This document shows positions 5,329 to 19,026 of a stretch of 20,000 nt of DNA, piece after piece (the first letter of the stretch is position 1; each line of letters begins with the position of its first letter). The notes below the pieces were generated by a model, which had not been told where the DNA came from, did not search any database, and saw only the letters and a list, made by a program, of their open reading frames with translations. Source of the stretch: an uncultured virus (IMG/VR IMGVR_UViG_3300011862_000002) (Duplodnaviria; Heunggongvirae; Uroviricota; Caudoviricetes). Both the position numbers and the translations under genes were made by a program. The stretch is taken from IMG/VR virus record IMGVR_UViG_3300011862_000002, one strand, 5' to 3'.

Positions 5329-8300
5329 ATGAAAACAGCAACAGCAACAGTAAACGCATTGGCAACAGAAGTAGCAGTAGCGAAAGCACGTCTTGTTGAA
5401 TTGCAAGATGCTTCAATCCGCGTTTCAAAACGCGAAAAGAAAGTCGCTAAAGCTGTCTTGCGTGTACGTCGCGCAGAGAAAGCGCTTAAGAAAGGGGTCT
5501 TGACTGTGAAAACAGCTGAGAAGAAAGAGCGACGTGCAAGCAACAAACAAGCACGTCAAACAGCCTTGGCACCGGCTCAAAAACGTGCTCGTCAACTTCT
5601 TTTGATGTTGACGCAAATGGCAGAAGTGGAAATCCCGAACTTCTTGTCACAATATAAGCTTGGTCTTCGTATCCAATTCTTCGCAAAAGCACCAAAAGCG
5701 AAGTTTGAGAAAGCGAAACCAGCAAAACAACCGAAAGGACGACTCTCTATTGCTGAGTTGTTCAAACGGTCTGGCTTGAAGAAAACGACAGGTCCGAAGA
5801 AACCGTCGTTCAACTTATCAGCCGATAACGTGAATCTTGCATTCTTCGATGCAAAAGGCAAATTCACGAGCCTTGAGCCTAAAACACTCAAGCACCTGTT
5901 GAAAACAGATGACATGAACCAGTTGACAATCGATGAGTCGGTTCAATTGTTCATGTTCCTACGTGGTTCTACACGCGTAGAAGATTCTGTCATGAACGAG
6001 AATACACTCGTTCAACGCAACAGTGAAAGTATGTTGGTCCGTGATACGGCGAAAGTCTTAACGACATTCCCTATCACAAAGAAAGACCCGTTAAACCGGG
6101 AAGATGTCATCGTCCAAGAAGTAGAAGGATATGACAACACGAAGCAACTCAACCTCAAAGTATCACTTGTGGTTGAGAAGCTGACAAACATCTTCACATC
6201 AAGCACTGTCGTCAATCAATTTGGCACAGTGTCGGAAGATGCGCTTGATGCTCTTATCAAGAACACTATCTTAAACGGTGTGCTCTTGCTTGATGAGAGT
6301 CAGAAGAAAATCAAGGTCTTTACCTTGAACAGTGCGGCTCCTTCCCAAACGCGTAAGGGAGAGGCGGCATTTTGGCAATACGGAGAGCAAGAAGGGTATG
6401 CAAACATGCATAAACTCTTGTTCAACGAAGCCGCACGTTCGCTTGCGGTGTATGGCCGCTTTGTTGCAACGTATCGTATGCATGAATACGGTAAATTGAA
6501 CAAAGCAATGAACAAACGGGTCTTCAAAATGGATAAAGACCCTAAGCGTACAGACATGCCAGCGTCTGGTTCGCGTCCATCGAATGTGATGGGCAAATTG
6601 TTCGGTCAGCTTGAAATCACAGACCGCTTCCCTTATCAAGATGATGAGAACAAAGATAAAGAGGGAATCGAGCTAACATCTGTCAATAAAATGATGGGTG
6701 GCGTTAAACGTAACATCCTTATCATCGAAGACCCTATCCATCTTGTTCGTGCGACTGCTAAGGTCGTCAACAAATTGGATGAAGCAACAGGGAAACCGGC
6801 GATTACTACTGTTACACGAGACTTCGAAAAGAACCTCGTTGACGGTGGTATCTTGGTGTCTCCTGAAATCACTCAATTCCTTGTAGCTGAAGGGATTTTG
6901 GAGCATGAAGGACAATCGTTCCAAGGACGAGGTGTCGCCGGTGTTAAACCGTTCGCATACGGTACACCAATGCTTAAAGAAGAAACAGGATATGACATGA
7001 TTCTTATGTCTGGTGCGTTGAAACTTGACGTGCTTCCTGCTTTGCTCGAAGGACGCTTCGAGTTCGCGGTCGTACAAGGGTCGCGTAAAGAGTTCAAAGA
7101 GGATATCGCGCCTGTAGCAACACAGGCTCTTTTGGCGACAGGAACGCCGAAGAAGAACCTCAAACGTCTTCACCAGATTTCAAAAGGACGCATTCAAGCA
7201 TCGTTGTTCTCTGCATCGAAAGCTTTGAAACTCCTTGGTGTTACAGACGAGTTCGATGAGTCAAAACTCGAAGAGTTAGATGCGAACGAAGAGTTCAATG
7301 ACATCATCGAAGGAGAAACAGGTGTCAAAGCCGTTCTCAAACAAGCACCACGTGCACTGAAAGATGGTGTACAGAAACAACGCCTTGCGAGTCTCTTGAC
7401 GAAATCACTTGAGAAAATCGTATTAGGTAACGTCTTGGTTGACGACGCTAAGATGCGTCATATGGGCTTTGACATCTTCATGGTGATGTCAGCGGTGAAG
7501 TCCATCAACCGTCAACGTAAAGAAGGCGTCGCAGTACCGAAGATGGAATGGGTACCGTCTATTCCAGCTGGCTGTGCAGTCGTTGTCGATGCAGATGGCA
7601 ACTTACGTGTAGGAGAGTTCATTGCCGCACGTTATCCTGCATTGAAACGCGAAGAGATTCGTAAAGTCTTCGCAACCGACAAGTTCGGCTCAGAAGAAGC
7701 ACGAGCTTACTATGAGAAAGCCGCGAAAATGGGCTTCTTCAAAGGACTCGTGTTGTTTAACTCTGTTGACATGACAACAGAGGCGATGTCAGGGGCTGAC
7801 TTCGATGGAGATACATGTCTTGTCATCTTCAACTCGTTAATGGTTCAACCATTCGAGAACAAGACACCAATCCTCGATTTCTTCATCACTGAGAGTGGTG
7901 CCATTAAAGGCGGATGCCCGTGGGCCGCACCGAAAGAAGCAGTCAACTTACGTCGCTTCGTTGATATCCCAGAAGGCCTTGAAGTCGTACAACGTACAGA
8001 CGAAAACGGTCGCACATGGGAGCTTGAATTCAACGAAGAAGATGTATTAAACCGTCCACAAGACGTGTACTATGTCTTCAACCGGATGGCGGCACTCCAC
8101 ATCGTCGAGACTTCAAAAGCATCATCAATCGGTTTGTGGACGAACCGTTTAATGAACATCGAAGACATCCAGCTTGAGATTCAAGCAGAGTACGAACTAG
8201 CTGTTCGTCTTCAGCATGCAGAGAAGCAACGTTATCTTCTTGCAGAAGGTCGTTTCTACGATGACCTCGCAACATGGTTAACGTGTGTTGTCCGTTGGGC

Positions 8301-8439
8301 AATCGATGAAGCAAAACACGGTGGTGCGTTCGCTCGTGAGTTAACACACGTGCTCAGCGTATTCACAGATGCTCCATCGCCAACGAAAGTCCGCGAAGAT
8401 ATCAAAGCAGGTATCTTCAAAATGGGTCGTATGTTCTAA
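5329..8439 (+). CDS. Single-subunit two-barrel RNA polymerase of the YonO / eukaryotic RNAi RdRP-like family
   Basis: Motifs in the order of the cellular RdRP family: DGGILVS, FQGRGVAGVK, ARYPAL, GLVLFN, MSGADFDGDTCLV (catalytic DFDGD at 7798-7812), SIGLWTN, AIDEAKHG. AAAGGGG SD. About 160-aa Lys/Ala-rich N-terminal extension. Confidence 0.9.
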   Translation: MKTATATVNALATEVAVAKARLVELQDASIRVSKREKKVAKAVLRVRRAEKALKKGVLTVKTAEKKERRASNKQARQTALAPAQKRARQLLLMLTQMAEVEIPNFLSQYKLGLRIQFFAKAPKAKFEKAKPAKQPKGRLSIAELFKRSGLKKTTGPKKPSFNLSADNVNLAFFDAKGKFTSLEPKTLKHLLKTDDMNQLTIDESVQLFMFLRGSTRVEDSVMNENTLVQRNSESMLVRDTAKVLTTFPITKKDPLNREDVIVQEVEGYDNTKQLNLKVSLVVEKLTNIFTSSTVVNQFGTVSEDALDALIKNTILNGVLLLDESQKKIKVFTLNSAAPSQTRKGEAAFWQYGEQEGYANMHKLLFNEAARSLAVYGRFVATYRMHEYGKLNKAMNKRVFKMDKDPKRTDMPASGSRPSNVMGKLFGQLEITDRFPYQDDENKDKEGIELTSVNKMMGGVKRNILIIEDPIHLVRATAKVVNKLDEATGKPAITTVTRDFEKNLVDGGILVSPEITQFLVAEGILEHEGQSFQGRGVAGVKPFAYGTPMLKEETGYDMILMSGALKLDVLPALLEGRFEFAVVQGSRKEFKEDIAPVATQALLATGTPKKNLKRLHQISKGRIQASLFSASKALKLLGVTDEFDESKLEELDANEEFNDIIEGETGVKAVLKQAPRALKDGVQKQRLASLLTKSLEKIVLGNVLVDDAKMRHMGFDIFMVMSAVKSINRQRKEGVAVPKMEWVPSIPAGCAVVVDADGNLRVGEFIAARYPALKREEIRKVFATDKFGSEEARAYYEKAAKMGFFKGLVLFNSVDMTTEAMSGADFDGDTCLVIFNSLMVQPFENKTPILDFFITESGAIKGGCPWAAPKEAVNLRRFVDIPEGLEVVQRTDENGRTWELEFNEEDVLNRPQDVYYVFNRMAALHIVETSKASSIGLWTNRLMNIEDIQLEIQAEYELAVRLQHAEKQRYLLAEGRFYDDLATWLTCVVRWAIDEAKHGGAFARELTHVLSVFTDAPSPTKVREDIKAGIFKMGRMF

Positions 8440-10508: not shown

Positions 10509-10514
10509 TTTAGG

Positions 10515-10544: not shown

Positions 10545-10590
10545 TCATTGTCCGTCACTCAATCCACATACAAAAAGGAGATTATTAATC

Positions 10591-11589: not shown

Positions 11590-11606
11590 GAGTGGGCACC
11601 CTTTTT
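11571..11606 (+). terminator. Possible terminator overlapping the stop codon
   Basis: Imperfect stem GGGGCGCCGACTC-ATTAA-GAGTGGGCACCC followed by T5. Confidence 0.45.
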
Positions 11607-11656
11607 CTATACGGTTGGCTATTGGGCCTTCGGCTAGGGGTTTTAAACCCTTACAG

Positions 11657-11672
11657 GCGGGGGCCTACGGCC
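11657..11672 (+). promoter_or_regulatory. Hairpin element copy 1 (no TGATT)
   Basis: GCGGG-GGCC-TAC-GGCC; compensatory stem variant. Confidence 0.65.
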
Positions 11673-11711
11673 ATCTTGCTTAGGTACTACAACTAGAAAG
11701 GAGTGACAACG

Positions 11712-11945
11712 ATGTCACGAGAGTTTATTGTTTCTTTATTGCGTTTGGTATTACCGTACCCGTTACACTGGTACGAAAGTAAGTCCTTGCACCAATTGAA
11801 CGGAATGTACGCGGAATACCGGGGAGCCATTTCCCGGAAACGTGTACAGTTGGCATTTGAAGCCGACGACCGCCGCTTGCAAGAGCGGTTAAAGAAAAAA
11901 CCATTCGTTCCTCCGAAAGAGGACAATGGATTGCCCTTCTTTTAG
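11712..11945 (+). CDS. Hypothetical protein (77 aa)
   Basis: ATG 11712 behind GAAAGGAG SD. Confidence 0.75.
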   Translation: MSREFIVSLLRLVLPYPLHWYESKSLHQLNGMYAEYRGAISRKRVQLAFEADDRRLQERLKKKPFVPPKEDNGLPFF

Positions 11946-11965
11946 GGCAAGTTCAAAAGCAAAAG

Positions 11966-11996
11966 GCGGGGGGCATACGCCCTTCTTTTGTTGATT
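11966..11996 (+). promoter_or_regulatory. Hairpin element copy 2
   Basis: GCGGG-GGGC-ATAC-GCCC-N9-TGATT. Confidence 0.75.
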
Positions 11997-11999
11997 CAA

Positions 12000-12253
12000 T
12001 GAGGTTGCACGAACTGATGTGCCTTCGGGTGCAGAGGTCTGTCCGCCCCTGATTGAGTTGTTTTAGAGCAAAACGGACAGACTTCCTGTTCGTACTCCTA
12101 TGTGTTGGGGGTACGAACGGTCAGGGGTCTATAAGTCCTCCAACACACATCAATTCTCTTCCTAACAGGAGGGTTGATGGAGGCACAAGCTTTACCCTTA
12201 ATTGTTAGGTCTCCCCCGTTCCACCGGGTAGGAGGGATTTAGGTGTAGTCTCG
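12000..12253 (+). ncRNA. Candidate large structured ncRNA with three pseudoknots; not assignable to a family I recognise
   Basis: Closing helix 12001-12010/12243-12252; cUUCGg hairpin 12018-12033; stems 12034-45/12074-85, 12086-98/12108-20 and 12148-58/12169-79; perfect 7-bp loop-to-downstream pairings; G-U pairs favour the plus-strand RNA; no credible ORF. Confidence 0.75.
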
Positions 12254-12262
12254 CGCAGGAGT

Positions 12263-12276
12263 GCGGGGGCTACGCC
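12263..12276 (+). promoter_or_regulatory. Hairpin element copy 3 (degenerate)
   Basis: GCGGGGGC-TAC-GCC; one G short, 3-bp stem, no TGATT. Confidence 0.45.
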
Positions 12277-12340
12277 AGTGGATATTGTGTGACCGGGGGC
12301 TTACTCACCCTCCGGCACATAGTAAATATTTAATGTTAAA

Positions 12341-12371
12341 ACGGGGGGCTACCGCCCTTCTACATATGATT
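12341..12371 (+). promoter_or_regulatory. Hairpin element copy 4
   Basis: ACGGG-GGGC-TACC-GCCC-N9-TGATT. Confidence 0.75.
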
Positions 12372-12401
12372 GATAATCTCATACTGAAGGGAATGGTTCA
12401 A

Positions 12402-12680
12402 ATGTTACAATATGATTATTCTGATGGTTTACATCGCTTGGCTCTATCTATTAATACACTGGTTGATGCCCACCGGGCAAATGCTTTAACTAATCAACAT
12501 CCTGCTCTTCTGTCTTATAAATCTGAATTACTTGTTCCCGGGTATCCTCATTTTGGGGCAATGGGAACATGGGCAATTACTGCTGTTGAATCCATGGTCG
12601 GTACACATGATGAATACGATGAATCCTATATGGACGCATGGGACGTTTACCATGGTAATCCTGTTGGTTCTTGGCGTTAA
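12402..12680 (+). CDS. Hypothetical protein (92 aa)
   Basis: Start moved to ATG 12402 (MLQYDYS) behind GAAGGGA; followed by a terminator. Confidence 0.7.
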   Translation: MLQYDYSDGLHRLALSINTLVDAHRANALTNQHPALLSYKSELLVPGYPHFGAMGTWAITAVESMVGTHDEYDESYMDAWDVYHGNPVGSWR

Positions 12681-12681
12681 T

Positions 12682-12706
12682 GGGGCCTTCGGGCTCCTTT
12701 TTTTTT
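12682..12706 (+). terminator. Intrinsic terminator
   Basis: GGGGCC-TTCG-GGCTCC followed by T9. Confidence 0.9.
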
Positions 12707-12714
12707 AATCCCGA

Positions 12715-12775
12715 ACACATCCCCAGTAGCCACACACATCCTTCGGCTATACATATCCAATTGCTATACATATCC
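12715..12775 (+). repeat. Four ACAYATCC boxes
   Basis: At 12715, 12734, 12751 and 12768 (spacing 19, 17, 17). Confidence 0.7.
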
Positions 12776-12788
12776 TTTATGATGAAGG

Positions 12789-12819
12789 GCGGGGGCCATA
12801 CGGCCTTCTGCTCTTGATT
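12789..12819 (+). promoter_or_regulatory. Hairpin element copy 5
   Basis: GCGGG-GGCC-ATAC-GGCC-N9-TGATT; lies after a strong terminator, where re-initiation would be needed. Confidence 0.75.
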
Positions 12820-12845
12820 CTAATCTATGCAAAGGGGAGATTTAC

Positions 12846-13028
12846 ATGAACATTTCTGAACTACAAGTTTTACATTCTAATGCTGGTTATTACCTTGGAC
12901 GGACATGCGAAGATGAAGTCGATGGCATGGTCTTCGATGTTCCCTATGACCGTCAGTCCGGCTACTATAAAACACAGGCACAAGCGGAGCAAGCGCTTCG
13001 GTTCGAACAACTGCATCAACAAGATTAA
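12846..13028 (+). CDS. Small phage protein (60 aa) with an SxAGYYxG...PYxRxSxYY pattern
   Basis: AAGGGGAG SD; pattern recalled from conserved phage hypothetical proteins; function unknown. Confidence 0.8.
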   Translation: MNISELQVLHSNAGYYLGRTCEDEVDGMVFDVPYDRQSGYYKTQAQAEQALRFEQLHQQD

Positions 13029-13030
13029 AA

Positions 13031-13061
13031 GCGGGGGGCTACAGCCCTCCTTTCTTTGATT
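13031..13061 (+). promoter_or_regulatory. Hairpin element copy 6
   Basis: GCGGG-GGGC-TACA-GCCC-N9-TGATT. Confidence 0.75.
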
Positions 13062-13090
13062 ACAACTTTATATGAAAAGGAGCGATTCAC

Positions 13091-13417
13091 ATGTATGAAC
13101 AAATTGAACGGGAAGTCGAAATGGACAAATTCTTCCGTCGGGGGAAATACACATCCAATGTTAACCCGGCAACTGGGGAATTCATCGAATCCCCACCTTC
13201 AGCGGATAAGCCTCACCGCTGTCATGTCATCAAACGGTTATGCCCGAAAATGACGATGAACACGGATATGGCTGTCATCACGCAAGATGTGAAGTTGGCT
13301 TATCAAGGAAAACAGTTTTGGCATACGGTTGAACTTGCAACATGCAAACGGGAAGACGTTGCTCGTGAGTATCAGAAATATGCTCAAGCGTGGCGCCTAG
13401 AGGAGGAAAGCAAATGA
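13091..13417 (+). CDS. Hypothetical protein (108 aa)
   Basis: AAAGGAG SD; coupled to the next gene. Confidence 0.8.
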   Translation: MYEQIEREVEMDKFFRRGKYTSNVNPATGEFIESPPSADKPHRCHVIKRLCPKMTMNTDMAVITQDVKLAYQGKQFWHTVELATCKREDVAREYQKYAQAWRLEEESK

Positions 13418-13593
13418 ACGACCAATTGCTTTTCTTCATGATGGCATCCATGTATCTCGTGTTTTGTGCGTACGTCGTCGGTATCGCGTATATTGCGCGG
13501 TACCTTCTGCTTCGCGATTGTTTCAAGTTAGCCTTCTCTAGTTTCTTCGTCGGTGTCGGCGGTCTTATCTTCGTTTTAAATACATTATTCTAA
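13414..13593 (+). CDS. Small membrane protein (59 aa)
   Basis: ATG 13414 behind GAGGAGG; two hydrophobic helices. Confidence 0.75.
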   Translation: MNDQLLFFMMASMYLVFCAYVVGIAYIARYLLLRDCFKLAFSSFFVGVGGLIFVLNTLF

Positions 13594-13607
13594 GGGAGCG
13601 ATTCATT

Positions 13608-13793
13608 ATGAAAAAAGTTGGTAAATTATTACTTAAAGGTGCTATTCTCTATACGTTTGCGATGTATGTCGCCGCTTACTCGATTGTCCAAGAAAAACGG
13701 AAGACCGACGCTCAGATTGATGAGCTCACGAAACAGTACGAAGCACGTCAAGCTGGTTTCAAAAAAACTCTTAAACAATTGGGGGCTATCTAA
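13608..13793 (+). CDS. Small membrane-anchored coiled-coil protein (61 aa)
   Basis: AAGGGAG SD; N-terminal hydrophobic helix. Confidence 0.8.
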   Translation: MKKVGKLLLKGAILYTFAMYVAAYSIVQEKRKTDAQIDELTKQYEARQAGFKKTLKQLGAI

Positions 13794-14068
13794 TGTTATT
13801 CTATGACACGCATTCTTCTAAAATGGTAGAACGTCCGCTCGTCGAAGTTATGTTAGAAAATGGTCAGCGCGGGGTATTCGTTAATAACAATATCTCGTGC
13901 ATCAACGCTTTTGACTTTGAGAAGAAAGTCTTAAGCCAGCAATCGATTGCGGGGAATGTCGATACACGGCACACGCCTCTCGATGAAGCTGTCGTTAAAT
14001 ATAATGAAACATGCATTCCATCAAAACGTATTGTCACATTCCATATCCTAGAGGAGGCAATAGCATGA
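13793..14068 (+). CDS. Hypothetical protein (91 aa)
   Basis: TAATG coupling with the upstream gene. Confidence 0.75.
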   Translation: MLFYDTHSSKMVERPLVEVMLENGQRGVFVNNNISCINAFDFEKKVLSQQSIAGNVDTRHTPLDEAVVKYNETCIPSKRIVTFHILEEAIA

Positions 14069-14352
14069 ACCCTGTCATCCAACCAACTACTACTATCAAA
14101 CCACTTCCACATGAAGATACGACGGAGACGCGCGAATACTCTGCTATCTACGCTGATGGTGTCCGTTACGAGGGCATCACCGCGATTCGTCTCGTTACCT
14201 TCAACAACGAAGGTCAGCGTCTTTACGAAGTCTCTGTCGACCCAGAAGAAAAGGTCTTCTATAAGATTCCTTATGGGTTTGATGTTCATTATGAGCATGA
14301 AGGTAAAGACATCAACATGATGATTACGCACGCTAAGTTCAAACAATATTGA
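14065..14352 (+). CDS. Hypothetical protein (95 aa)
   Basis: ATG 14065 behind GAGGAGG; ATGA coupling. Confidence 0.8.
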   Translation: MNPVIQPTTTIKPLPHEDTTETREYSAIYADGVRYEGITAIRLVTFNNEGQRLYEVSVDPEEKVFYKIPYGFDVHYEHEGKDINMMITHAKFKQY

Positions 14353-14375
14353 GGGCCTTCGGGCTCTCTTTTTTT
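14351..14375 (+). terminator. Intrinsic terminator
   Basis: GAGGGCC-TTCG-GGCTCTC followed by T7. Confidence 0.9.
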
Positions 14376-14381
14376 ATGGAC

Positions 14382-14425
14382 ACACATCTCCAGTGAGAAC
14401 ACACATCCAAAAGGAGGACACATCC
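14382..14425 (+). repeat. Three ACACATCY boxes
   Basis: At 14382, 14401 and 14418 (spacing 19, 17). Confidence 0.7.
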
Positions 14426-14426
14426 A

Positions 14427-14630
14427 ATGTCTACTTTCACCATCATTTGTTTAGTAGTGTTGTTCGTATGCCTCATTGTAAGCATACACAATTACCGCAA
14501 AGCCCTTCGGCTCATTCAAGAGCATGGGACCAGCCAACAACTTAAAGGGAACTTGAAGGTCCAGCGATTCAATCTCTTACTTCAATTCGTTTTATTCTTC
14601 GGCATTCTATTCCTTAATCTATTCTTTTAA
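14427..14630 (+). CDS. Small membrane protein (67 aa)
   Basis: AAGGAGG SD; two hydrophobic helices. Confidence 0.8.
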   Translation: MSTFTIICLVVLFVCLIVSIHNYRKALRLIQEHGTSQQLKGNLKVQRFNLLLQFVLFFGILFLNLFF

Positions 14631-14640
14631 AAGATAAAGG

Positions 14641-14670
14641 GCGGGGGGCTACGCCCTCCTCTTAATGATT
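14641..14670 (+). promoter_or_regulatory. Hairpin element copy 7
   Basis: GCGGG-GGGC-TAC-GCCC-N9-TGATT. Confidence 0.8.
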
Positions 14671-14714
14671 CTCAGTGCCTGTAGCCATTCACCTTATAGA
14701 AAGGAAGATTATCC

Positions 14715-15020
14715 ATGGAAGAACAAATCTACGCGTATCAGCACATCCTCAACAACACAAAGAAGTTCGATGACATCACTGTCGGGTTAGCCTCTGTCGT
14801 CAACGGTCTTGTCAATGACCTCATTGCGAAGAATCAAGACTTCATTCGTATGAACAGTGAACAGCGGTTGTATTCGGCTGTCGCCAAAGCTCGTATCTTG
14901 GAAATGCAATTGGCGTACACGATTGACTATAGTCATACGCCGTTGCTTCCAGAGATTCTTCCGCTCGACCCTATCAAGGTCAATGCGCTACAGGAGGAAT
15001 ACGAAGCCCAGTTCCAATAA
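14715..15020 (+). CDS. Hypothetical protein (101 aa)
   Basis: GAAAGGA SD. Confidence 0.8.
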   Translation: MEEQIYAYQHILNNTKKFDDITVGLASVVNGLVNDLIAKNQDFIRMNSEQRLYSAVAKARILEMQLAYTIDYSHTPLLPEILPLDPIKVNALQEEYEAQFQ

Positions 15021-15060
15021 GAGCCTTCTGGCTCTTACATACCCAAAGGAGGAGATACTC

Positions 15061-15420
15061 ATGAAAAACGCACAGGAAATGTACACCATCACACAGGAAG
15101 CTACGAAACGACGTGCCAAACAAATTGCTACCAAAAGAATCGTCACGGCTCTTGCCGGCTTAATTGAAACAGAAGCCAATAAAGGGATGACCTATGTGAA
15201 AGTTCCTATCAGCGATTTGCCTTTTGACAACAACTTCTTCGCAAGCTTAGGAAACTTAGAGGCGGTTGCGCTGGAACTCCGTAAGTTCGACTACAAAGCC
15301 CATGTCATCCTTGACAACCATACCGGTTCTATCTTCTTACATGTTGATTGGACACCTGATGAACTCGAAGAAGTCTTCAAAGAATTGGGTGCGGTCATAC
15401 GCGCTTCCTCCCAATTCTAA
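15061..15420 (+). CDS. Hypothetical protein (119 aa), probable paralog of the next gene
   Basis: Start moved to ATG 15061 behind AAGGAGGAG. Confidence 0.8.
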   Translation: MKNAQEMYTITQEATKRRAKQIATKRIVTALAGLIETEANKGMTYVKVPISDLPFDNNFFASLGNLEAVALELRKFDYKAHVILDNHTGSIFLHVDWTPDELEEVFKELGAVIRASSQF

Positions 15421-15429
15421 GAACAAAGA

Positions 15430-15460
15430 GCGGGGGGCGTACGCCCTCCTGTTCTTGATT
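15430..15460 (+). promoter_or_regulatory. Hairpin element copy 8
   Basis: GCGGG-GGGC-GTAC-GCCC-N9-TGATT. Confidence 0.75.
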
Positions 15461-15478
15461 ATGAGAGGAGAGATATCC

Positions 15479-15796
15479 ATGATGTCTACAGAAGCAGAAA
15501 TCTTTCGTTTTATGGCAAACGAACGGAATCTTCAGAAACAACATGAGGACGCCGTACTCAATGTAAAAATCATCAACGCCGCAGAAGAGATGATAGCGGA
15601 CTGCATGCCACGTGCCGCACGAGGCTTATACTCGCACCATATCTCATTGTCTGACTATGAATTCCTTTTCTCAAACATTCATGCTTACGATGAAGCCATT
15701 ATGGAACAATTGACCTATCGTGGGTTCACTGTCCATCAAACGCATCCCGCGCATCTTCTTATTTCATGGAAGGCAGAGGCAGGTGAAACCCCTTGA
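15479..15796 (+). CDS. Hypothetical protein (105 aa), probable paralog of the previous gene
   Basis: Start moved to ATG 15479 behind GAGGAG. Confidence 0.8.
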   Translation: MMSTEAEIFRFMANERNLQKQHEDAVLNVKIINAAEEMIADCMPRAARGLYSHHISLSDYEFLFSNIHAYDEAIMEQLTYRGFTVHQTHPAHLLISWKAEAGETP

Positions 15797-16296
15797 AAAT
15801 TGGTGTCATCGGCATGCGGATGCGGAAACACCATCCGTACTACAACCGCAACAGCCCAAAGCTTGATGATATCTGGAAGTGGCAAGAAGACATCCTCAGT
15901 GCTCTTGCACCCCAAGGACATACGTTCTTAATCGGGTGTGCGGACCACTGGGACAGTCGTGCCATGAAATGGTTATTCTATAACGGATACGCCGACCAGA
16001 TTCAGCTCATCTTACCTTTCCCGGGCTTCGGGCATAAACAGGGAGAAGATTGGCGGAAGGTGCGGGAACAACTGGAACTTCGAGGGCAAGCCCTCTATAT
16101 CCATGACAACCCGACCTCTGACCAATACCAAATGCTCAACCAACGAAACCGGACGCTCATCCATGAAAGTGACTGGATACTCTGGTTATGGGACGGAACC
16201 CAGAAAGACGCTTACAGTGGGCTCATCCTGAATAAGAAACCCGGCTATACTTTCCCGTGGAAGACCTACGTGGAAAGCCATCGCGTCACTCAATGA
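15793..16296 (+). CDS. SLOG-superfamily protein, YspA/DUF1273-like
   Basis: MKIGVIGMR start, FLIGCADHWD, LILPFPG and QRNRTLIHESDWILWLWDG match the YspA/DUF1273 pattern; TTG start behind AGGTGA. Confidence 0.75.
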   Translation: MKIGVIGMRMRKHHPYYNRNSPKLDDIWKWQEDILSALAPQGHTFLIGCADHWDSRAMKWLFYNGYADQIQLILPFPGFGHKQGEDWRKVREQLELRGQALYIHDNPTSDQYQMLNQRNRTLIHESDWILWLWDGTQKDAYSGLILNKKPGYTFPWKTYVESHRVTQ

Positions 16297-16333
16297 CCAT
16301 AACTCAATCGCATACAAAAAGGAGACTATTATC

Positions 16334-16702
16334 ATGACTACGTCTATCAAACATTTTAACTTCGAGGATACTATGACAATCGAGGGGCAAGACGTCATCG
16401 TCGGCGCCACTCCCACTGTCCTTTCTAAAATCAAAGAGTTTGGGTTAAGCGTCTATGAAATCGTGGCGGACTTACAGCTGACTGCACCGGAAGCCTTCGA
16501 CCTTCCAAACAACACGAGCTATGCTGTCGTCAATCCATTCATGAACACGTGTGCCCTCGCCCGCGTCTACAGTGATGACGGCAACATCTGCATCGATTGC
16601 TTTGATGTCCGCAATACCATCCCATACGGCAACGTCCGTAATGATGGCACGCAAGGCTATCGTCTAGGGGCTATCAACAAAGTCCTGACGGTGGTGCAGT
16701 GA
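16334..16702 (+). CDS. Hypothetical protein (122 aa)
   Basis: AAGGAG SD. Confidence 0.8.
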   Translation: MTTSIKHFNFEDTMTIEGQDVIVGATPTVLSKIKEFGLSVYEIVADLQLTAPEAFDLPNNTSYAVVNPFMNTCALARVYSDDGNICIDCFDVRNTIPYGNVRNDGTQGYRLGAINKVLTVVQ

Positions 16703-16806
16703 TGAAACGCAAACATCCGCATTATCACGATATCATGGAAAGTATCAGTATCGCCGTCGGCTTATTAGCGATGGCGTACTTTACTTTATCGTTCGCTTTT
16801 CATTAA
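16702..16806 (+). CDS. Small membrane peptide (34 aa)
   Basis: TGATG coupling, GGTGGTG SD; MKRKHPHYHDIMESISIAVGLLAMAYFTLSFAFH. Confidence 0.6.
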   Translation: MKRKHPHYHDIMESISIAVGLLAMAYFTLSFAFH

Positions 16807-16824
16807 GACCTTAAAACCTTAAGA

Positions 16825-16840
16825 GCGGGGGGCTACGCCC
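16825..16840 (+). promoter_or_regulatory. Hairpin element copy 9 (no TGATT)
   Basis: GCGGG-GGGC-TAC-GCCC followed by TCCTTCTTA-TAGGG. Confidence 0.7.
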
Positions 16841-16888
16841 TCCTTCTTATAGGGCTCACTACTCCCACATTAGAAAGGAAGTTATCCC

Positions 16889-17449
16889 ATGCAACTCAAC
16901 CAATTCGTACAAGAATATTATCAGCGTCCTCAGGACAAGCCTTTAATCCAACGTGTCGGTGGCATGCTCCCGGTATCGAAAACTGTCTTCAACGATGAAA
17001 TCTCGAACCTGAAAGTGGACATGGCAGGACATGCCATCCTCTTGCAACAAATTGCTTCTCACATTGGTCTTGAACTCCAAGACGTCCAGCACTCTGCTGT
17101 CGAAGTCGCCGGCATGAAACAAGAAGCCCGCAACTTCGAGAAGAAAGTCCAAGCGTATGAGCACCGGGAACACCAGTATGCGAACGGTTCTCTCTTAGAG
17201 AAGGCTCGTCGCTTCATGGGTGCAGACCCAGTCGACCCACGCTCTACGGTTAAACCCGACCAACAACCGGTCATCAACATCCAATTACCGGAAGGTCTGA
17301 CGGGTGATAACAGCATGCAAGAACGCATGGCTCGTAACGAACAAACGCTCCAAGAACTAGGCACGCAAATGGCATCATTGCTTTCTGTGCTCAATCAAAA
17401 TTTCGAAGCGAAACAAGCAGAAGCGGAAACTTCTGAAGTAAAAGCGTAA
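16889..17449 (+). CDS. Coiled-coil hypothetical protein (186 aa)
   Basis: GAAAGGA SD; Q/E-rich heptad-like segments. Confidence 0.85.
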   Translation: MQLNQFVQEYYQRPQDKPLIQRVGGMLPVSKTVFNDEISNLKVDMAGHAILLQQIASHIGLELQDVQHSAVEVAGMKQEARNFEKKVQAYEHREHQYANGSLLEKARRFMGADPVDPRSTVKPDQQPVINIQLPEGLTGDNSMQERMARNEQTLQELGTQMASLLSVLNQNFEAKQAEAETSEVKA

Positions 17450-17501
17450 GGTACGCGGGGAGTACGAGCCCGCTCCCCTTACATATAAGGAGGTCATCCC
17501 C

Positions 17502-17687
17502 ATGGCATCAGATGAACTAGAACTCGTCAAATCATTCTTGTATCTTATCGGTTTATGCATCATCGCTCTAGGGGCATTGTTCTTGAAGATTGCTTACATC
17601 GATAGACGGGTCATCGACCACTCTCTGCTATGGGGTGGCGTCATGGCCATCGGCATCATCTTTATCTACAAAGTCAGTCAAATGTAG
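17502..17687 (+). CDS. Small membrane protein (61 aa)
   Basis: AAGGAGGT SD; two hydrophobic helices. Confidence 0.8.
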   Translation: MASDELELVKSFLYLIGLCIIALGALFLKIAYIDRRVIDHSLLWGGVMAIGIIFIYKVSQM

Positions 17688-17698
17688 GAGGAAACCTC

Positions 17699-17914
17699 AT
17701 GTCCATCTTAGCGGTCCTATTCGTCACATTCTATGCCGTAGTGTTATTAAACATGTGGCGCTTAACCTTGATTGTCATAGGCAAGTGGTGGCGCGTCCGA
17801 TACTCGAAAGACACCGTCAAACGCTCTTTTGCTTTCGAAGAAATGATGAAATGCATTGGTATGACAGTATTCGCTACTGTCTTTTTTGGCTCCATTCTTT
17901 ATGAAAACCTTTAA
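17699..17914 (+). CDS. Small membrane protein (71 aa)
   Basis: Start moved to ATG 17699 behind AGGAGG; two hydrophobic helices. Confidence 0.8.
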   Translation: MSILAVLFVTFYAVVLLNMWRLTLIVIGKWWRVRYSKDTVKRSFAFEEMMKCIGMTVFATVFFGSILYENL

Positions 17915-17916
17915 GA

Positions 17917-17946
17917 GCGGGGGACTACGTCCTTCTTTTAATGATT
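17917..17946 (+). promoter_or_regulatory. Hairpin element copy 10
   Basis: GCGGG-GGAC-TAC-GTCC-N9-TGATT; compensatory G-C to A-T change. Confidence 0.8.
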
Positions 17947-17949
17947 ACA

Positions 17950-18010
17950 TGCCGAAACGTCGAGAGACGTCATCTACGGGTACCCTCCGTAGGTCTGATG
18001 ATGGCAGGGA
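17950..18010 (+). ncRNA. Type II hammerhead ribozyme
   Basis: TGCC-GAAA-CGTC(GAGA)GACG-TC-ATCTACGG(GTACCCT)CCGTAGGT-CTGATGA-T-GGCA-GGG: complete core (GAAA, GUC triplet, CUGAUGA), stems III, I and II paired; predicted cleavage 3' of C17971. Confidence 0.92.
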
Positions 18011-18039
18011 AAAGCGGAAAACCCTAAAACCTTTTAAAG

Positions 18040-18069
18040 GCGGGGGGCTACGCCCTTCTTTTCTTGATT
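18040..18069 (+). promoter_or_regulatory. Hairpin element copy 11
   Basis: GCGGG-GGGC-TAC-GCCC-N9-TGATT. Confidence 0.8.
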
Positions 18070-18153
18070 CAGAGAACACTCCATCCTTTTTGGTGACGGG
18101 AGTTCTTCTGGGTACACAAATTGTCCACGTGACGTTAAAAGGAGGAATTACTC

Positions 18154-18753
18154 ATGCAAATCCAAGGACTCGTACTCGACCAATCGAAAGTCAACGACAC
18201 AAAAGGACCGCTCTGGTATCTTCAAGACGAAAAGTCTACAGACGCTTCTTCTAACGCTGACCTAGGTATCGAAAACATCGTCATCGTTCCAGCTTCTTCT
18301 GAGGCGCAAGCGAAATCCGGTGTCATCGGTCAGGTACAATTGCACACTGTCGTTGGTTCGTTCTACTTCTCAGCTTTCCGTGGGAAACAAGACGCGAACT
18401 CTGTCCGGCTCGTCTTCCCTTCTCGTGAGTACATCGAGAACGGGGAAAAGAAATACCGTGACGAATACCGTCTGAATCAGTCGGTGCGCGCACAAGTACT
18501 CAAACATGTTCACTCGAAATGTAAACAAGCTTCTGTCGAGCAACAAGCTCAGGCACAAGCTCAAGCGAATCCGGCTCTCGCCGCTCTTGCTGGTCTTGAC
18601 GCTAACACTATCGCCCTCCTCGTCGCCGCTCTAGGTGGCGCAGGTGGCGCTGGTGCTGTTCAACCGCAAGCGCAAGCTCAGGTTCAAGAACAAACAGCGG
18701 GTGCGACGGAGACTCCAACGGTTCCGCCAATCATCAGCGACAAAGCGTTTTAA
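18154..18753 (+). CDS. SpoVG-like nucleic-acid-binding protein with a low-complexity tail
   Basis: RLVFPSREYIENGEKKYRDEYRLNQSVRAQVLKHV aligns by eye with the SpoVG C-terminal pattern (VAMPS...GEFRD...INSxTRxKIQDAV); AAGGAGG SD; A/Q/G-rich tail ending SDKAF. Confidence 0.6.
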   Translation: MQIQGLVLDQSKVNDTKGPLWYLQDEKSTDASSNADLGIENIVIVPASSEAQAKSGVIGQVQLHTVVGSFYFSAFRGKQDANSVRLVFPSREYIENGEKKYRDEYRLNQSVRAQVLKHVHSKCKQASVEQQAQAQAQANPALAALAGLDANTIALLVAALGGAGGAGAVQPQAQAQVQEQTAGATETPTVPPIISDKAF

Positions 18754-18761
18754 GGTCAAAG

Positions 18762-18791
18762 GCGGGGGGCTACGCCCCTCTTCTTTTGATT
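18762..18791 (+). promoter_or_regulatory. Hairpin element copy 12
   Basis: GCGGG-GGGC-TAC-GCCC-N9-TGATT. Confidence 0.8.
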
Positions 18792-18813
18792 GATTCGTTA
18801 TCTCAGCGTCCTC

Positions 18814-18885
18814 AACGGAGCGGGCGTTGTCACGGCGTAAGGAGCCTTCCCCTTCTCCTTATTCCGCGACAGCGTCTGCTCTGTT
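18814..18885 (+). ncRNA. Candidate small hairpin RNA with a C/U-rich loop
   Basis: 31-position stem with two mismatches and several G-U pairs; loop CCTTCCCCTT; intergenic. Confidence 0.55.
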
Positions 18886-18911
18886 TCCATCTTTTTATGA
18901 TACATACCTAG

Positions 18912-18998
18912 ACACATCCGCGATGGCTTCCCTGTGGGACTTTTTCTAAAAAAGGAGAAACACATCCGTGATGGCTTTTCTCTAGGGATTTTTTTAAA
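18912..18998 (+). repeat. Degenerate 48-bp tandem duplication starting ACACATCCGYGATGGCTT
   Basis: ACACATCCGCGATGGCTTCCC at 18912 and ACACATCCGTGATGGCTTTTC at 18960. Confidence 0.7.
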
Positions 18999-19026
18999 CT
19001 CTAGCCGTAAGAAAGGAAGATGTACT

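What the first reader, a model, noticed from the sequence alone, without database searches (positions are those of the whole stretch)
11657..18791. Twelve-copy intergenic hairpin element: candidate N4-style DNA-hairpin promoter for a YonO/RdRP-like phage polymerase
Seen: GCGGG-[stem]-TAC-[stem] occurs 12 times, always intergenic, on the same strand, and only downstream of the polymerase gene. The stem covaries (GGGC/GCCC, GGCC/GGCC, GGAC/GTCC). In 9 copies TGATT lies exactly 9 nt after the 3' arm whether the loop is 3 or 4 nt, so spacing appears set by the structure rather than by linear distance. On the template strand the loops are c-GTA-g, c-GTAT-g, c-GTAC-g, c-GGTA-g and one exception, c-TGTA-g. 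Established: cGNAg, cGNABg and cGNNAg are exceptionally stable DNA hairpin loops, and coliphage N4 virion RNAP promoters are template-strand GC-GNA-GC hairpins followed by an A-run; the template N9 here is also purine-rich. Inference: these are extruded-hairpin promoters, plausibly read by the 5329-8439 enzyme. N4 vRNAP is T7-like, and I know of no two-barrel polymerase using such promoters. Alternatives are RNA processing sites or regulated terminators, since the plus-strand RNA can extend the stem with G-U pairs.
Basis: partly seen in the sequence, partly recalled or inferred. Interest (0 to 1): 0.92.

Follow-up and report, generated by a model that had tools for sequence, protein, structure and literature searches.

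The report
Hairpin-plus-TGATT promoter cassettes of a giant phage
Eleven copies of a tiny GC hairpin followed at a fixed distance by TGATT sit in front of the genes downstream of an RNAi-type RNA polymerase gene in an uncultured, probably very large phage; they are most likely that phage's own promoters, and would be the first promoter signal described for this polymerase family.

Summary
The window has 11 clear copies, not 12. Two sites are atypical: 12263 lies inside an ncRNA helix, and 17455 has a different hairpin. The motif is AAGAGCGGG-GGNC-(N)TAC(N)-GN'CC-YYCT-N5-TGATT. All copies are on the + strand, intergenic and downstream of the polymerase operon; chance expects 0.00.

Two related phage contigs, with polymerases 65% and 44-47% identical, carry 13 and 10 copies in the same place. 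They show compensatory stem changes and the same 9-nt spacing. In the more distant phage the loop is TTC instead of TAC. The motif is absent from 388 kb around 22 distant homologues and SPbeta.

The same phages also have ordinary terminators with UUCG loops and T7-9 tails, sometimes about 100 nt upstream of an element. A conserved ncRNA has its terminal helix starting at the G of TGATT.

I read the elements as phage-specific promoters: about 0.7 for any promoter, about 0.45 for the full statement with a structurally recognised DNA hairpin read by the neighbouring QDE-1-like polymerase. A PeSL-like terminator-plus-promoter cassette is the main rival. No transcript ends were available, so nothing is proven.

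The parts
5329..8439 (+). Gene of a 1036-aa two-barrel RNA polymerase of the QDE-1/RDR/YonO kind, the candidate reader of the elements
   Evidence: DFDGD at residues 824-828. Pfam RdRP PF05183 scores E 0.0016, 17.7 bits, below the 23.8-bit cut-off; 25 of 34 aligned homologues hit RdRP at E<=0.01. The AF2 model has pLDDT 82.6. Best Foldseek matches are QDE-1 at 2.7e-11 and RDR2, then crAss-like phi14:2 gp66 at 2.4e-3.
11657..11686 (+). Element copy 1: GCGGG GGCC TAC GGCC ATCTTGCTT AGGTA. It has no TGATT; the next ATG is at 11712.
   Evidence: (33.0 bits). The orthologous first copies in G001 (GGTAT) and G002 (GGAAA) also lack TGATT.
11966..11996 (+). Element copy 2, loop ATAC, TGATT at 9 nt; followed by a conserved ncRNA
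   Evidence: 29.9 bits. The ncRNA's terminal helix starts at the G of this TGATT.
12341..12371 (+). Element copy 3, 5' flank ACGGG, loop TACC, TGATT at 9 nt; ATG at 12402
   Evidence: 23.2 bits. The G001 orthologue has GGCC/GGCC instead of GGGC/GCCC.
12789..12819 (+). Element copy 4, loop ATAC, TGATT at 9 nt; ATG at 12846. It lies about 100 nt after a canonical terminator.
   Evidence: 30.1 bits
13031..13061 (+). Element copy 5, loop TACA, TGATT at 9 nt; 2 nt after the stop at 13028; ATG at 13091
   Evidence: 30.7 bits
14641..14670 (+). Element copy 6, loop TAC, TGATT at 9 nt; ATG at 14715
   Evidence: 37.4 bits
15430..15460 (+). Element copy 7, loop GTAC, TGATT at 9 nt; the SD GAGGAG starts 5 nt after TGATT and the ATG comes 18 nt after it
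   Evidence: 20.3 bits
16825..16854 (+). Element copy 8, loop TAC, with TAGGG in place of TGATT at 9 nt; ATG at 16889
   Evidence: 33.4 bits. The same variant sits at the matching sites in G001 (TACGG) and G002 (TAGGG).
17917..17946 (+). Element copy 9, stem GGAC/GTCC, TGATT at 9 nt; followed 3 nt later by a hammerhead-like ribozyme
   Evidence: (39.2 bits)
18040..18069 (+). Element copy 10, loop TAC, TGATT at 9 nt; ATG at 18154
   Evidence: 42.2 bits
18762..18791 (+). Element copy 11, loop TAC, TGATT at 9 nt; followed by a conserved 235-nt non-coding stretch and then the gene at 19027
   Evidence: (41.3 bits)
12682..12708 (+). Canonical intrinsic terminator GGGGCC-TTCG-GGCTCC-T9, a separate class from the elements
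   Evidence: -11.1 kcal/mol. Relatives of this class are window 10513 and 14351, L002 17868, 18299, 20535 and 20841, and L001 19224 and 19548.
14351..14377 (+). Canonical intrinsic terminator GAGGGCC-TTCG-GGCTCTC-T7
11992..12340 (+). Structured ncRNA bounded by copies 2 and 3; it contains the site '12263'
   Evidence: MFE -145.2 kcal/mol, z -4.86. Conserved in G002 with 16 compensatory pairs, and the P1 helix begins at the G of TGATT. No Rfam match there at E<=1.
17950..18013 (+). Hammerhead type II-like ribozyme between copies 9 and 10
   Evidence: Rfam RF02276 scores 33.6 bits, below the gathering score of 37, E 0.0017. The core is almost identical in G001.
17455..17473 (+). Atypical hairpin GCGGG-GAGTACGAG-CCCGC; not a family member
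   Evidence: Not found by model R1 at E<=1.

Best explanation
The elements are phage-specific promoters that mark the starts of transcription units in the cluster of small genes downstream of the polymerase operon.

Each unit is about 35 nt. It has an A/G-rich 5' flank ending in GCGGG, a 4-bp GC stem (GG-N-C / G-N'-CC) closed over a T-A/T-C loop, an invariant C-T at positions 3-4 after the stem within a 9-nt pyrimidine spacer, and TGATT.

I infer that transcription starts at or next to the G/A of TGATT. I also infer that the hairpin is part of the recognition signal as a structure. Most likely it is a template-strand DNA mini-hairpin whose loop reads G-N-A, which gives a sigma-less polymerase a fixed landmark and access to single-stranded template. 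This is the logic of phage N4's virion polymerase.

The most likely reader is the neighbouring QDE-1-like polymerase (5329-8439). In the window and G001 the same sequence in RNA can also form a 7-bp G-U-containing hairpin with a T-rich tail, so it may in addition dampen read-through from upstream.

Shown: the family, its strand and position, stem covariation, fixed spacing, co-variation with the polymerase clade, and separate canonical terminators. Inferred: promoter activity, the start site, the DNA-hairpin form, and which polymerase reads it.
For: 1. Non-chance family. 11 of 11 window copies are on the + strand against 0.00 expected. Model R1 finds 45 hits at E<=1 in 103,037 bases of the three related phages, all on the + strand. 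It finds 1 weak hit (16.6 bits) in 388,489 bases of 22 distant polymerase loci plus SPbeta.

2. Structure.
- In 21 three-nt-loop copies the third stem pair is CG 13, GC 5, AU 2, other 1, and the loop-closing pair is CG 18, GC 3. The covariation score is 0.318 against 0.143 for shuffles, reached by 0 of 500.
- 32 of 34 copies have a perfect 4-bp core (one row corrected).
- Five orthologous window/G001 pairs differ by a full compensatory change at that position (12346, 13036, 14646, 15435 and 16830 against G001 27171, 28862, 30974, 31764 and 33196).

3. Spacing. TGATT is exactly 9 nt from the 3' arm in 23 of 34 copies, TGATA in 2 and TAGGG in 2. There is one 1-nt indel in the spacer, while 10 of 34 loops carry an extra base on either side. 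Spacer positions 3 and 4 are C and T in all copies.

4. Loop. TAC (window, G001) and TTC (G002) keep T and C and vary the middle base, which is G-N-A on the template strand in 24 of 34 copies. d(GNA) triloops with a C-G closing pair, and GCGNAGC mini-hairpins, are unusually stable in DNA (abstracts of PMC3201870 and PMC13037366).

5. The elements are not the phage's terminators.
- The same genomes have canonical UUCG-loop terminators with T6-9 tails.
- One of these lies about 80-110 nt upstream of an element at window 12682/12789 and at three G001 junctions.
- In G002, 5 of 9 copies fold at only -6 to -7 kcal/mol as RNA, and the flanking 'extension' pairs are not kept there.

6. Position. Seven of the eight copies that precede a protein gene have TGATT (or its variant) 18-44 nt before an SD-led start codon; the eighth is at 84 nt. 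The other three precede a conserved ncRNA, a ribozyme and a conserved non-coding stretch.

7. Start site. The ncRNA's terminal helix begins at the G of TGATT in both the window and G002.

8. No sigma-70-type -35/-10 lies at any element.

9. Link to the polymerase.
- The cluster begins right after the polymerase operon in all three phages.
- The loop and 5' flank differ only in the phage whose polymerase is 44-47% identical.
- Exact-pattern scans of 2.9 million viral contigs find the TAC type only in G001. They find the TTC type only in G002, plus two single sites in seemingly coding DNA.

10. Background. The related crAss-like gp66 transcribes single-stranded but hardly double-stranded DNA, and no promoter motif was found for it (passages of bioRxiv 10.1101/2020.03.07.982082). 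YonO's promoter was undetermined in 2017 (passages of PMC5467207).

11. Both imperfect cores (L016:1833 GGAC/GCCC and L002:18403 GGCC/GACC) are mismatches on the + strand but G-T wobbles on the template strand. That is 2 of 2, which chance gives 1 time in 4.
Against: - No transcript ends were seen. The only runs holding the sequence are kept as contigs, and the one labelled RNA-Seq is probably DNA.
- In the window and G001 the + strand RNA folds into a 7-bp stem at -8 to -14 kcal/mol, as stable as the canonical terminators, with 3-7 T in the next 8 nt. The simple terminator scan flags many copies.
- Seven of 11 copies start 2-20 nt after a stop codon (one of these counts a 34-aa ORF read by eye), which is where terminators sit.
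- The A/G-rich 5' flank is loosely complementary to the T/C-rich spacer, as in terminators with A- and U-tracts.
- With nearest-neighbour DNA parameters the template-strand hairpin is weak, -2 to -6 kcal/mol.
- The conserved stem is 4 bp, shorter than N4's 5-7 bp.
- Ten of 34 loops have 4 nt, and four of these (template TGTA, CGTA) fit no stable DNA loop class that I recall.
- Three G002 copies have a G-C rather than a C-G closing pair.
- A distant group of RdRP-like-polymerase phages has a hairpin-less TTGATATTT motif in front of SD sequences. A TTGAT-type core may therefore work without any hairpin.
- Any co-evolving phage factor, not only the polymerase, would explain the clade-specific loop.
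- Only 20, 54 and 26 kb of genomes estimated at about 230 kb are visible.
Confidence: 0.45

Rival explanations
1. A composite terminator-plus-promoter cassette, as in the PeSLs of T4-like phages. The hairpin works in RNA as a terminator or insulator for upstream transcription. A short linear promoter (3' arm, YYCT, TGATT) that overlaps its tail restarts transcription. The hairpin is not itself read by the polymerase.
For: - The RNA stems in the window and G001 are as stable as the canonical terminators and have T-rich tails.
- Copies abut stop codons.
- PeSLs are repeated promoter/stem-loop cassettes that flank orphan genes in hyperplastic regions, with tested promoter and terminator activity (abstract of PMC4122927; abstract and passages of PMC2839356).
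- The hairpin-less TTGATATTT motif in distant polymerase-bearing phages suggests that a TTGAT core can stand alone.
- Genome-specific stem preferences (GGGC in the window, GGCC in G001) fit homogenisation among copies.
Against: - The spacer admits almost no indels although its sequence is free, while the loop admits them. Two independent modules would not need that.
- The loop keeps T-N-C across the clade, although the same phages use UUCG for real terminators.
- In G002 most copies are too weak as RNA hairpins: 5 of 9 fold at only -6 to -7 kcal/mol.
- A canonical terminator sits about 100 nt upstream of an element at four junctions, which makes a second terminator redundant.
- No sigma-70-like boxes are present, unlike PeSLs.
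Confidence: 0.27
2. Terminators or attenuators only. The elements stop or dampen transcription between genes and are read through by an antitermination-modified or hairpin-insensitive polymerase. TGATT is part of the release or recognition signal.
For: Hairpin plus T-rich tail on the coding strand, right after stop codons. Sequence-specific termination signals are known for some phage and viral polymerases (recalled, not checked here).
Against: - Conservation extends 9-14 nt beyond the stem and includes alternative 'initiator' variants kept at orthologous sites in three phages.
- The ncRNA helix starts at the G of TGATT.
- Genes that follow a canonical terminator still need a promoter, and the element stands just before that gene's start (window 12682/12789/12846).
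- The RNA stems in G002 are weak.
Confidence: 0.12
3. An RNA-level site for processing, stability or protein binding. A phage or host factor recognises the small hairpin in the polycistronic transcript and cuts near UGAUU, or protects the mRNA ends.
For: - Strand-specific and intergenic, with a conserved loop.
- A hammerhead-like ribozyme sits between two copies, and next to copies in G002, which shows that RNA processing occurs in this region.
- G-U-compatible flanks in two of the three phages.
Against: - Canonical terminators inside the cluster would break any long precursor.
- A 4-bp stem with a triloop is a small RNA target.
- The flank pairs are not kept in G002.
- No nuclease or RNA-binding domain was recognised in the window: Pfam on 7 proteins and PHROGs on 32 gave no informative hit.
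Confidence: 0.1
4. DNA recombination or mobility sites (attC-like, REP/RAYT-like or homing signals) that bound exchangeable gene cassettes.
For: Same-orientation hairpins bound small orphan genes. Contigs of relatives break or join at elements, for example 12813 to 13056 and the loose ends at 15460 and 17919. These joints have short sides and count only as a weak hint.
Against: - No integrase or HUH gene was recognised.
- The hairpin is far smaller than attC sites.
- The fixed distance to SD and start codons, and the TGATT-ncRNA junction, point to transcription.
- Homologous recombination between any 30-bp repeats would give the same joints.
Confidence: 0.03

Closest known systems
Early promoters of coliphage N4 read by its virion RNA polymerase
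   Same: A short GC-rich inverted repeat with a 3-nt loop that is G-N-A on the template strand. Conserved bases sit beside free but complementary stem positions. A purine-rich template 'ruler' lies between the hairpin and the start. The signal sits upstream of small early-type genes (N4 features from passages of PMC4496689).
   Different: The N4 enzyme is T7-like, whereas the polymerase here is a two-barrel QDE-1-like enzyme. N4 stems are 5-7 bp and centred at -11; here the conserved stem is 4 bp and the loop centre lies about 16 nt from the G of TGATT. N4 has three promoters, whereas here there are at least 11 per 7 kb. Extrusion, SSB dependence and the start site are untested here.
PeSL promoter/stem-loop cassettes of T4-like phages
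   Same: Repeated, same-strand intergenic cassettes that combine a stem-loop with a promoter. They flank small orphan genes in a variable region and are possible recombination points (PMC2839356, PMC4122927).
   Different: PeSLs carry sigma-70-type -35/-10 boxes for the host polymerase. None is present here. The hairpin-to-TGATT spacing here is rigid and the loop is conserved.
Rho-independent terminators
   Same: A GC stem plus a T-rich tail on the coding strand after stop codons. RNA stability in the window and G001 is comparable to the phage's own terminators.
   Different: The sequence is conserved in the flanks, the loop and a downstream pentamer. The tail is interrupted. Stems are weak in G002. 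A distinct canonical terminator class exists in the same genomes.
Promoters of other two-barrel phage polymerases (P23-45 gp96/gp64, crAss-like phi14:2 gp66, SPbeta YonO)
   Same: A phage-encoded, sigma-less two-barrel enzyme with its own signals near its gene.
   Different: [quoted passage not shown] No motif was found for gp66. YonO's promoter was undetermined. Those passages mention no promoter hairpin, and four full-text searches found no paper reporting one for a two-barrel phage polymerase.

Membership tests
N4-type DNA-hairpin promoter | Inverted repeat whose complementarity, not sequence, is kept at variable positions | tested here: met
   Pairs 8-14 (CG 13, GC 5, AU 2, other 1) and 9-13 (CG 18, GC 3) in 21 copies; covariation reached by 0 of 500 shuffles. 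32 of 34 cores are perfect.
N4-type DNA-hairpin promoter | 3-nt loop of G-N-A type on the template strand | tested here: inconclusive
   24 of 34 loops are GTA or GAA on the template strand and 21 of these have a C-G closing pair. 10 of 34 have 4-nt loops.
N4-type DNA-hairpin promoter | Stem of 5-7 bp | tested here: not met
   Only 4 bp are conserved across the family. The three flanking pairs are G-U/G-C in the window and G001 but are often broken in G002, and they show no change on both sides.
N4-type DNA-hairpin promoter | Start site at a fixed distance from the hairpin (loop centre at -11) | not testable with these tools
   No 5' ends are available. The spacing to TGATT is fixed at 9 nt, and an ncRNA helix starts at its G, which would put the loop centre near -16.
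N4-type DNA-hairpin promoter | Read by a T7-like single-subunit virion polymerase, with gyrase-driven extrusion and SSB | tested here: not met
   The only polymerase seen is two-barrel, QDE-1-like. Extrusion and SSB dependence are not testable here.
Rho-independent terminator | Stable GC-rich RNA stem directly followed by a U-tract | tested here: inconclusive
   Window and G001 copies average -11.3 to -12.5 kcal/mol with 3-7 T in 8 nt. G002 averages -8.4, and 5 of 9 copies fold at only -6 to -7. Canonical terminators reach -11 to -16 with T6-9.
PeSL composite cassette | Sigma-70-like -35 and -10 boxes next to the stem-loop | tested here: not met
   The consensus scan finds no promoter-like site at any element: 21 sites in the window against 27.7 expected, none at the copies.
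PeSL composite cassette | Repeated cassettes flanking small orphan genes, same orientation, in a variable region | tested here: met
   Genes of 60-200 aa; 29 of 32 predicted proteins have no PHROG match. Gene content differs between the window and G001 at some units.
Two-barrel RdRP/QDE-1/YonO-like RNA polymerase (for the 5329-8439 product) | DxDGD catalytic motif and the double-psi-barrel fold | tested here: met
   DFDGD at 824-828 is invariant in 34 homologues. Foldseek gives QDE-1 at E 2.7e-11 and RDR2 at 1.3e-8. The Pfam RdRP score is below the cut-off for this protein.
Hammerhead ribozyme type II (for 17950-18013) | Rfam gathering score and the conserved core CUGAUGA...GAAA...GUC | tested here: inconclusive
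   33.6 bits against a gathering score of 37, E 0.0017. The core letters are present and almost unchanged in G001.

The most novel reading that the evidence does not exclude
A two-barrel, RNAi-type (QDE-1/YonO-like) phage RNA polymerase finds its genes through extruded template-strand DNA mini-hairpins (C-GNA-G triloops on a 4-bp stem) placed a fixed 9 nt before a TGATT initiator. This would be the N4 promoter principle evolved independently in an unrelated polymerase fold. It would also be the first promoter defined for this polymerase family, and it would explain why such enzymes prefer single-stranded templates in vitro.
Probability: 0.37. Interest if true: 0.9.

Novelty: new variant of a known kind. 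Interest (0 to 1): 0.74.

Why it matters
Single-chain two-barrel RNA polymerases of phages (YonO, crAss-like gp66 and their relatives) are evolutionary cousins of both cellular RNA polymerases and eukaryotic RNAi polymerases. How they find promoters without sigma factors is open. YonO's promoter was undetermined in 2017, and no motif was found for gp66.

This finding gives a compact, testable 35-nt candidate signal with natural variants:
- three stem types;
- two loop types that track polymerase divergence;
- two or three initiator variants.

Together with the gene of the likely reader, it can be tested directly in vitro with synthetic oligonucleotides. If the hairpin is read as DNA structure, it shows that structure-based promoter recognition arose twice in unrelated polymerases. 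If not, it is still a clean example of a promoter/insulator cassette system that organises an orphan-gene region in a dark, probably giant phage.

Tried and rejected
- **RNA evidence.** No RNA holder was listed. Of 24 runs, 18 hold parts of the stretch and all are kept as contigs. Laying 4 runs gave no molecule starts or ends, and the 'RNA-Seq' run is probably DNA.
- **Own genome.** None is held.
- **Phage databases.** INPHARED gave no match by blastn of 11500-19000 or by tblastn of the polymerase.
- **More relatives.** The metagenome scan gave one 7-kb contig without elements. The genome-contig scan gave none. P0005 in viral contigs gave none.
- **Generality of hairpins.** The 22 distant polymerase loci have no R1 hits and no enrichment of GNA mini-hairpins. 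Hairpins were not shown to be general for the wider family.
- **SPbeta.** I read the 1.7-kb yonN-yonK region. I saw no such element, but I could not place the published start site in that record, so this is not a test.
- **The 677-aa neighbour.** No Pfam, PHROG or usable Atlas hit.
- **RNA stem extension.** The slid controls pair 69-71% of cells and there is no change on both sides, so the extension is not established.
- **Site 12263.** Rejected as a copy or an RNA 'decoy' of the element. It is one strand of a long conserved ncRNA helix.
- **Sigma-70 promoter using TTGATT as -35.** There is no -10 at the right distance, and the SD follows within 5 nt in copy 15430.
- **Earlier notes of this scan.** None for this genome or for the polymerase sequence.

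Full report
**What is there.** The window is phage-like and almost wholly unannotatable. Of 32 predicted proteins, 29 have no PHROG match and the other three match families of unknown function. The divergent left part is followed by a + strand operon (4256-11589) that holds a 1036-aa protein with the motif SGADFDGD.

From 11657 to 18791 a repeated element occupies most of the larger gaps between + strand genes. The degenerate pattern CGGGGGNC-N3-4-GNCCNNCT matches 11 times, always on the + strand, where 200 shuffles give none. The consensus is AAGAGCGGG / GGNC / (N)TAC(N) / GN'CC / YYCT-N5 / TGATT.

- Eleven copies are clear, including one at 12341 with ACGGG.
- The site at 12263 is one strand of an ncRNA helix.
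- The site at 17455 is a different hairpin with a 5-bp stem and a 9-nt loop.

TGATT lies exactly 9 nt after the 3' arm in 9 of 11 copies, whether the loop has 3 or 4 nt. The other two have AGGTA and TAGGG at that place.

**The polymerase.**
- Pfam gives only a sub-threshold RdRP hit.
- An exhaustive profile-free search finds 83 homologues. Of 34 that I aligned, 25 hit Pfam RdRP, and DFDGD is invariant.
- An AlphaFold model (pLDDT 82.6) matches QDE-1 (E 2.7e-11), plant RDR2, and more weakly the crAss-like phage polymerase gp66 (2.4e-3).

**Relatives.** Three related contigs exist in the collections searched.
- G001: 53.7 kb, polymerase 65% identical.
- G002: 26 kb, polymerase 44-47% identical.
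- One 7-kb metagenome contig that ends before the cluster.

CheckV's completeness estimates of 23% and 11% imply genomes near 230 kb. Gene order is shared with the window.

G001 has 13 copies, all on the + strand and all within 9 kb downstream of the polymerase operon. A related hairpin lies 13 kb further on.

G002 has 10 copies in the same place, plus a weaker one upstream. These have loop TTC, 5' flank GCG(C/G/T)AG and stems GGCC/GGCC or GGCG/CGCC. They keep the same YYCT and the same 9-nt distance to TGATT, TGATA or TAGGG.

A covariance model built from 21 three-nt-loop copies finds 45 hits at E<=1 in 103 kb of these phages, every one on the + strand. It finds one 16.6-bit hit in 388 kb from 22 distant polymerase loci and SPbeta.

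Exact patterns scanned over 2.9 million viral contigs hit only G001 for the TAC type. For the TTC type they hit G002, plus two single sites in what looks like coding DNA of contigs in which no polymerase was found.

**Is the hairpin real?** Across 34 copies, 32 have a perfect 4-bp core (the L043 row was mis-set in that script and I corrected it from the sequence printed).

In the 21 gap-free copies:
- the third pair is C-G 13, G-C 5, A-U 2, unpaired 1;
- the closing pair is C-G 18, G-C 3;
- the other two pairs never vary;
- no shuffle of 500 reaches the observed covariation score.

Five orthologous sites differ between the window and G001 by a double, compensating change. A protein dimer on a duplex palindrome would not demand complementarity at a position it does not read, so intrastrand pairing in DNA or RNA is the simplest reading.

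They show no change on both sides, and the slid controls pair almost as well (69-71%). They are also often broken in G002. They are therefore not established as a selected structure.

**Terminator or promoter?** In favour of a terminator:
- The + strand RNA of window and G001 copies folds at about -8 to -14 kcal/mol with a T-rich tail, like the phage's own terminators.
- A simple terminator scan flags many copies.
- Seven of 11 copies begin 2-20 nt after a stop codon, counting a 34-aa ORF at 16702-16806 that I read by eye.

Against a mere terminator:
1. The same genomes hold a distinct, textbook terminator class (GAGGGCC-TTCG-GGCTCTC followed by T6-9). It occurs at window 10513, 12682 and 14351, four times in G001 and twice in G002.
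2. Such a terminator stands about 80-110 nt upstream of an element at window 12682/12789 and at three G001 junctions. A second terminator there would be redundant, whereas a promoter would be needed.
3. In G002, 5 of 9 copies are only -6 to -7 kcal/mol as RNA.
4. Conservation runs past the tail into a pentamer at fixed distance. Positions 3-4 after the stem are C-T in every copy. The variant pentamers (none at the first copy, TAGGG-like at another) are kept at orthologous sites in all three phages.
5. The 9-nt spacer varies freely in sequence but has one indel in 34 copies, whereas 10 of 34 loops carry an extra base.
6. Seven of the eight copies that precede a protein gene have the pentamer 18-44 nt before an SD-led start, the eighth 84 nt. 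In copy 15430 the SD starts 5 nt after TGATT, so any start site must lie at or just after TGATT.
7. The other three copies precede non-coding products:
   - a 350-nt structured RNA (z -4.86) that is conserved in G002 with 16 compensatory pairs and whose terminal helix begins at the G of TGATT in both phages;
   - a hammerhead-like ribozyme that begins 1-4 nt after TGATT (Rfam 33.6 bits, below the gathering score) and is almost invariant between the window and G001;
   - a conserved non-coding stretch.
8. No sigma-70-type boxes accompany the elements.

Together these make 'promoter of some kind' the best reading, at about 0.7.

**DNA hairpin or linear promoter?** For a structural, template-strand reading:
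- The loop keeps its outer T and C while the middle base changes between clades. That is G-N-A on the template strand in 24 of 34 copies, 21 of them closed by C-G. GGGC-GTA-GCCC contains the mini-hairpin word GCGNAGC.
- d(GNA) triloops and GCGNAGC/GCGNNAGC mini-hairpins are exceptionally stable in DNA (abstracts only, PMC3201870 and PMC13037366). In RNA the same phages choose UUCG for real terminators.
- The spacing is counted from the stem base, not from the 5' arm.
- Both imperfect stems are G-T wobbles on the template strand and A-C mismatches on the RNA strand (2 of 2, weak).
- The related gp66 enzyme transcribes single-stranded but hardly double-stranded DNA and has no known promoter motif (passages).
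- N4's virion polymerase offers the precedent: a hairpin centred at -11, a sheared G-A loop, four template A's as a ruler, and gyrase- and SSB-dependent extrusion (passages of PMC4496689).

Against it:
- The stem is only 4 bp.
- Nearest-neighbour DNA energies are -2 to -6 kcal/mol.
- Four of the ten 4-nt loops fit no stable class that I recall. The classes cGNABg and cGNNAg are recalled from the literature and were not checked here.
- Three G002 copies have a G-C closing pair.
- The geometry is about 5 nt longer than in N4.
- A distant group of RdRP-like-polymerase phages carries a hairpin-less TTGATATTT. The 28 copies listed for three of its four loci are all on the + strand, and about 40% stand directly before an SD. 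That hints at a TTGAT-type core that needs no hairpin.

I put the full statement (promoter, hairpin read as structure, neighbouring polymerase) at 0.45. A PeSL-like terminator-plus-linear-promoter cassette gets 0.27, with PeSL properties taken from PMC2839356 and PMC4122927.

**Who reads it?**
- The cluster starts immediately after the polymerase operon in all three phages.
- The element type tracks polymerase divergence.
- The exact element was found only in contigs that carry this polymerase clade.

This is co-occurrence, not proof. Any co-evolving phage factor would fit, and only a tenth to a quarter of each genome is visible.

**Comparison with what is in print.** Full-text searches turned up only N4-type enzymes for hairpin promoters. 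They found no report of a hairpin promoter for a two-barrel phage polymerase. The term sets were YonO/promoter/hairpin; YonO/RNA polymerase/transcription start; hairpin promoter/phage/RNA polymerase; and two-barrel/phage/promoter/hairpin.

An earlier AI note of this scan (e1-6053061, another genome) reports template-strand mini-hairpins with an RdRP-like cyanophage polymerase. I did not test it, and it is not independent evidence.

**Verdict.** The promoter reading is well supported by comparative anatomy. The N4-style DNA-hairpin mechanism is plausible but unproven. It is a new variant of a known kind (phage-specific promoters; hairpin promoters) and can be tested in vitro with one protein and a few oligonucleotides.

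Noticed in passing
window 17950-18013 (+); L016 about 1742-1805; L043 about 400-420: A hammerhead type II-like ribozyme lies between element copies 9 and 10 (33.6 bits, gathering score 37, E 0.0017). Its core is almost identical in G001 although proteins there are 50-65% identical. G002 has AGCCGAAACGTCC just after a tandem pair of elements.
   Followed up: partly
window 11992-12340 (+); L001 16724-17095: A roughly 350-nt structured ncRNA (z -4.86) with no Rfam match, conserved between the window and G002 with 16 compensatory pairs. G001 has a small gene at the matching place instead.
   Followed up: partly
window 12715-12775, 14380-14425, 18912-18967 (+); G001 27948-27974, 28398-28422, 30941, 35678-35732: Direct repeats of ACA(C/T)AT(C/T)C, partly as GACACATCCGNGATGGCT. 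Nearly all are on the + strand. They typically lie between a canonical terminator and an element, or before an SD. They may be a second promoter class or regulator sites.
   Followed up: partly
window 10513-10538, 12682-12708, 14351-14377; L002 17868, 18299, 20535, 20841; L001 19224, 19548: A second repeated hairpin family: near-identical canonical terminators GAGGGCC-TTCG-GGCTCTC with T6-9 tails.
   Followed up: partly
window 18792-19026; L016 2565-2795: A conserved 235-nt non-coding stretch follows the last element. It has a long imperfect hairpin ending in a T-run and then two ACACATCC-type repeats before the gene at 19027.
   Followed up: no
L001 928-1511 and 86-431 (-); L002 493-1082 (-): Group I introns (Rfam 91, 56 and 65.7 bits, all above the gathering score of 50) lie in the relatives about 9 kb upstream of the polymerase gene. 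None was found in the window.
   Followed up: no
L024, L027, L028, L039 (IMG/VR contigs with distant RdRP-like polymerases): TTGATATTT occurs 7-11 times per locus. All 28 copies listed for L024, L027 and L039 are on the polymerase strand, and about 40% of them stand 3-10 nt before an SD and start codon. This is a possible hairpin-less promoter that shares the TTGAT core.
   Followed up: partly
window 16702-16806 (+): An unlisted 34-aa hydrophobic ORF overlaps the stop of the previous gene (TGATG) and fills most of the apparent gap before copy 8. I read it by eye.
   Followed up: no
window 5329-5750 (polymerase residues 1-140): The polymerase has a basic, helical, low-confidence N-terminal extension. 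The 34-48% identical homologues align only from about residue 150.
   Followed up: no
window 12813/13056, 15460, 17919, 18001/18120: Contigs of related phages in public runs break or join at or near elements. One carries a TTC-type element joined to window sequence at 15460. The sides are short, so this is only a weak hint that elements are mosaic boundaries.
   Followed up: no
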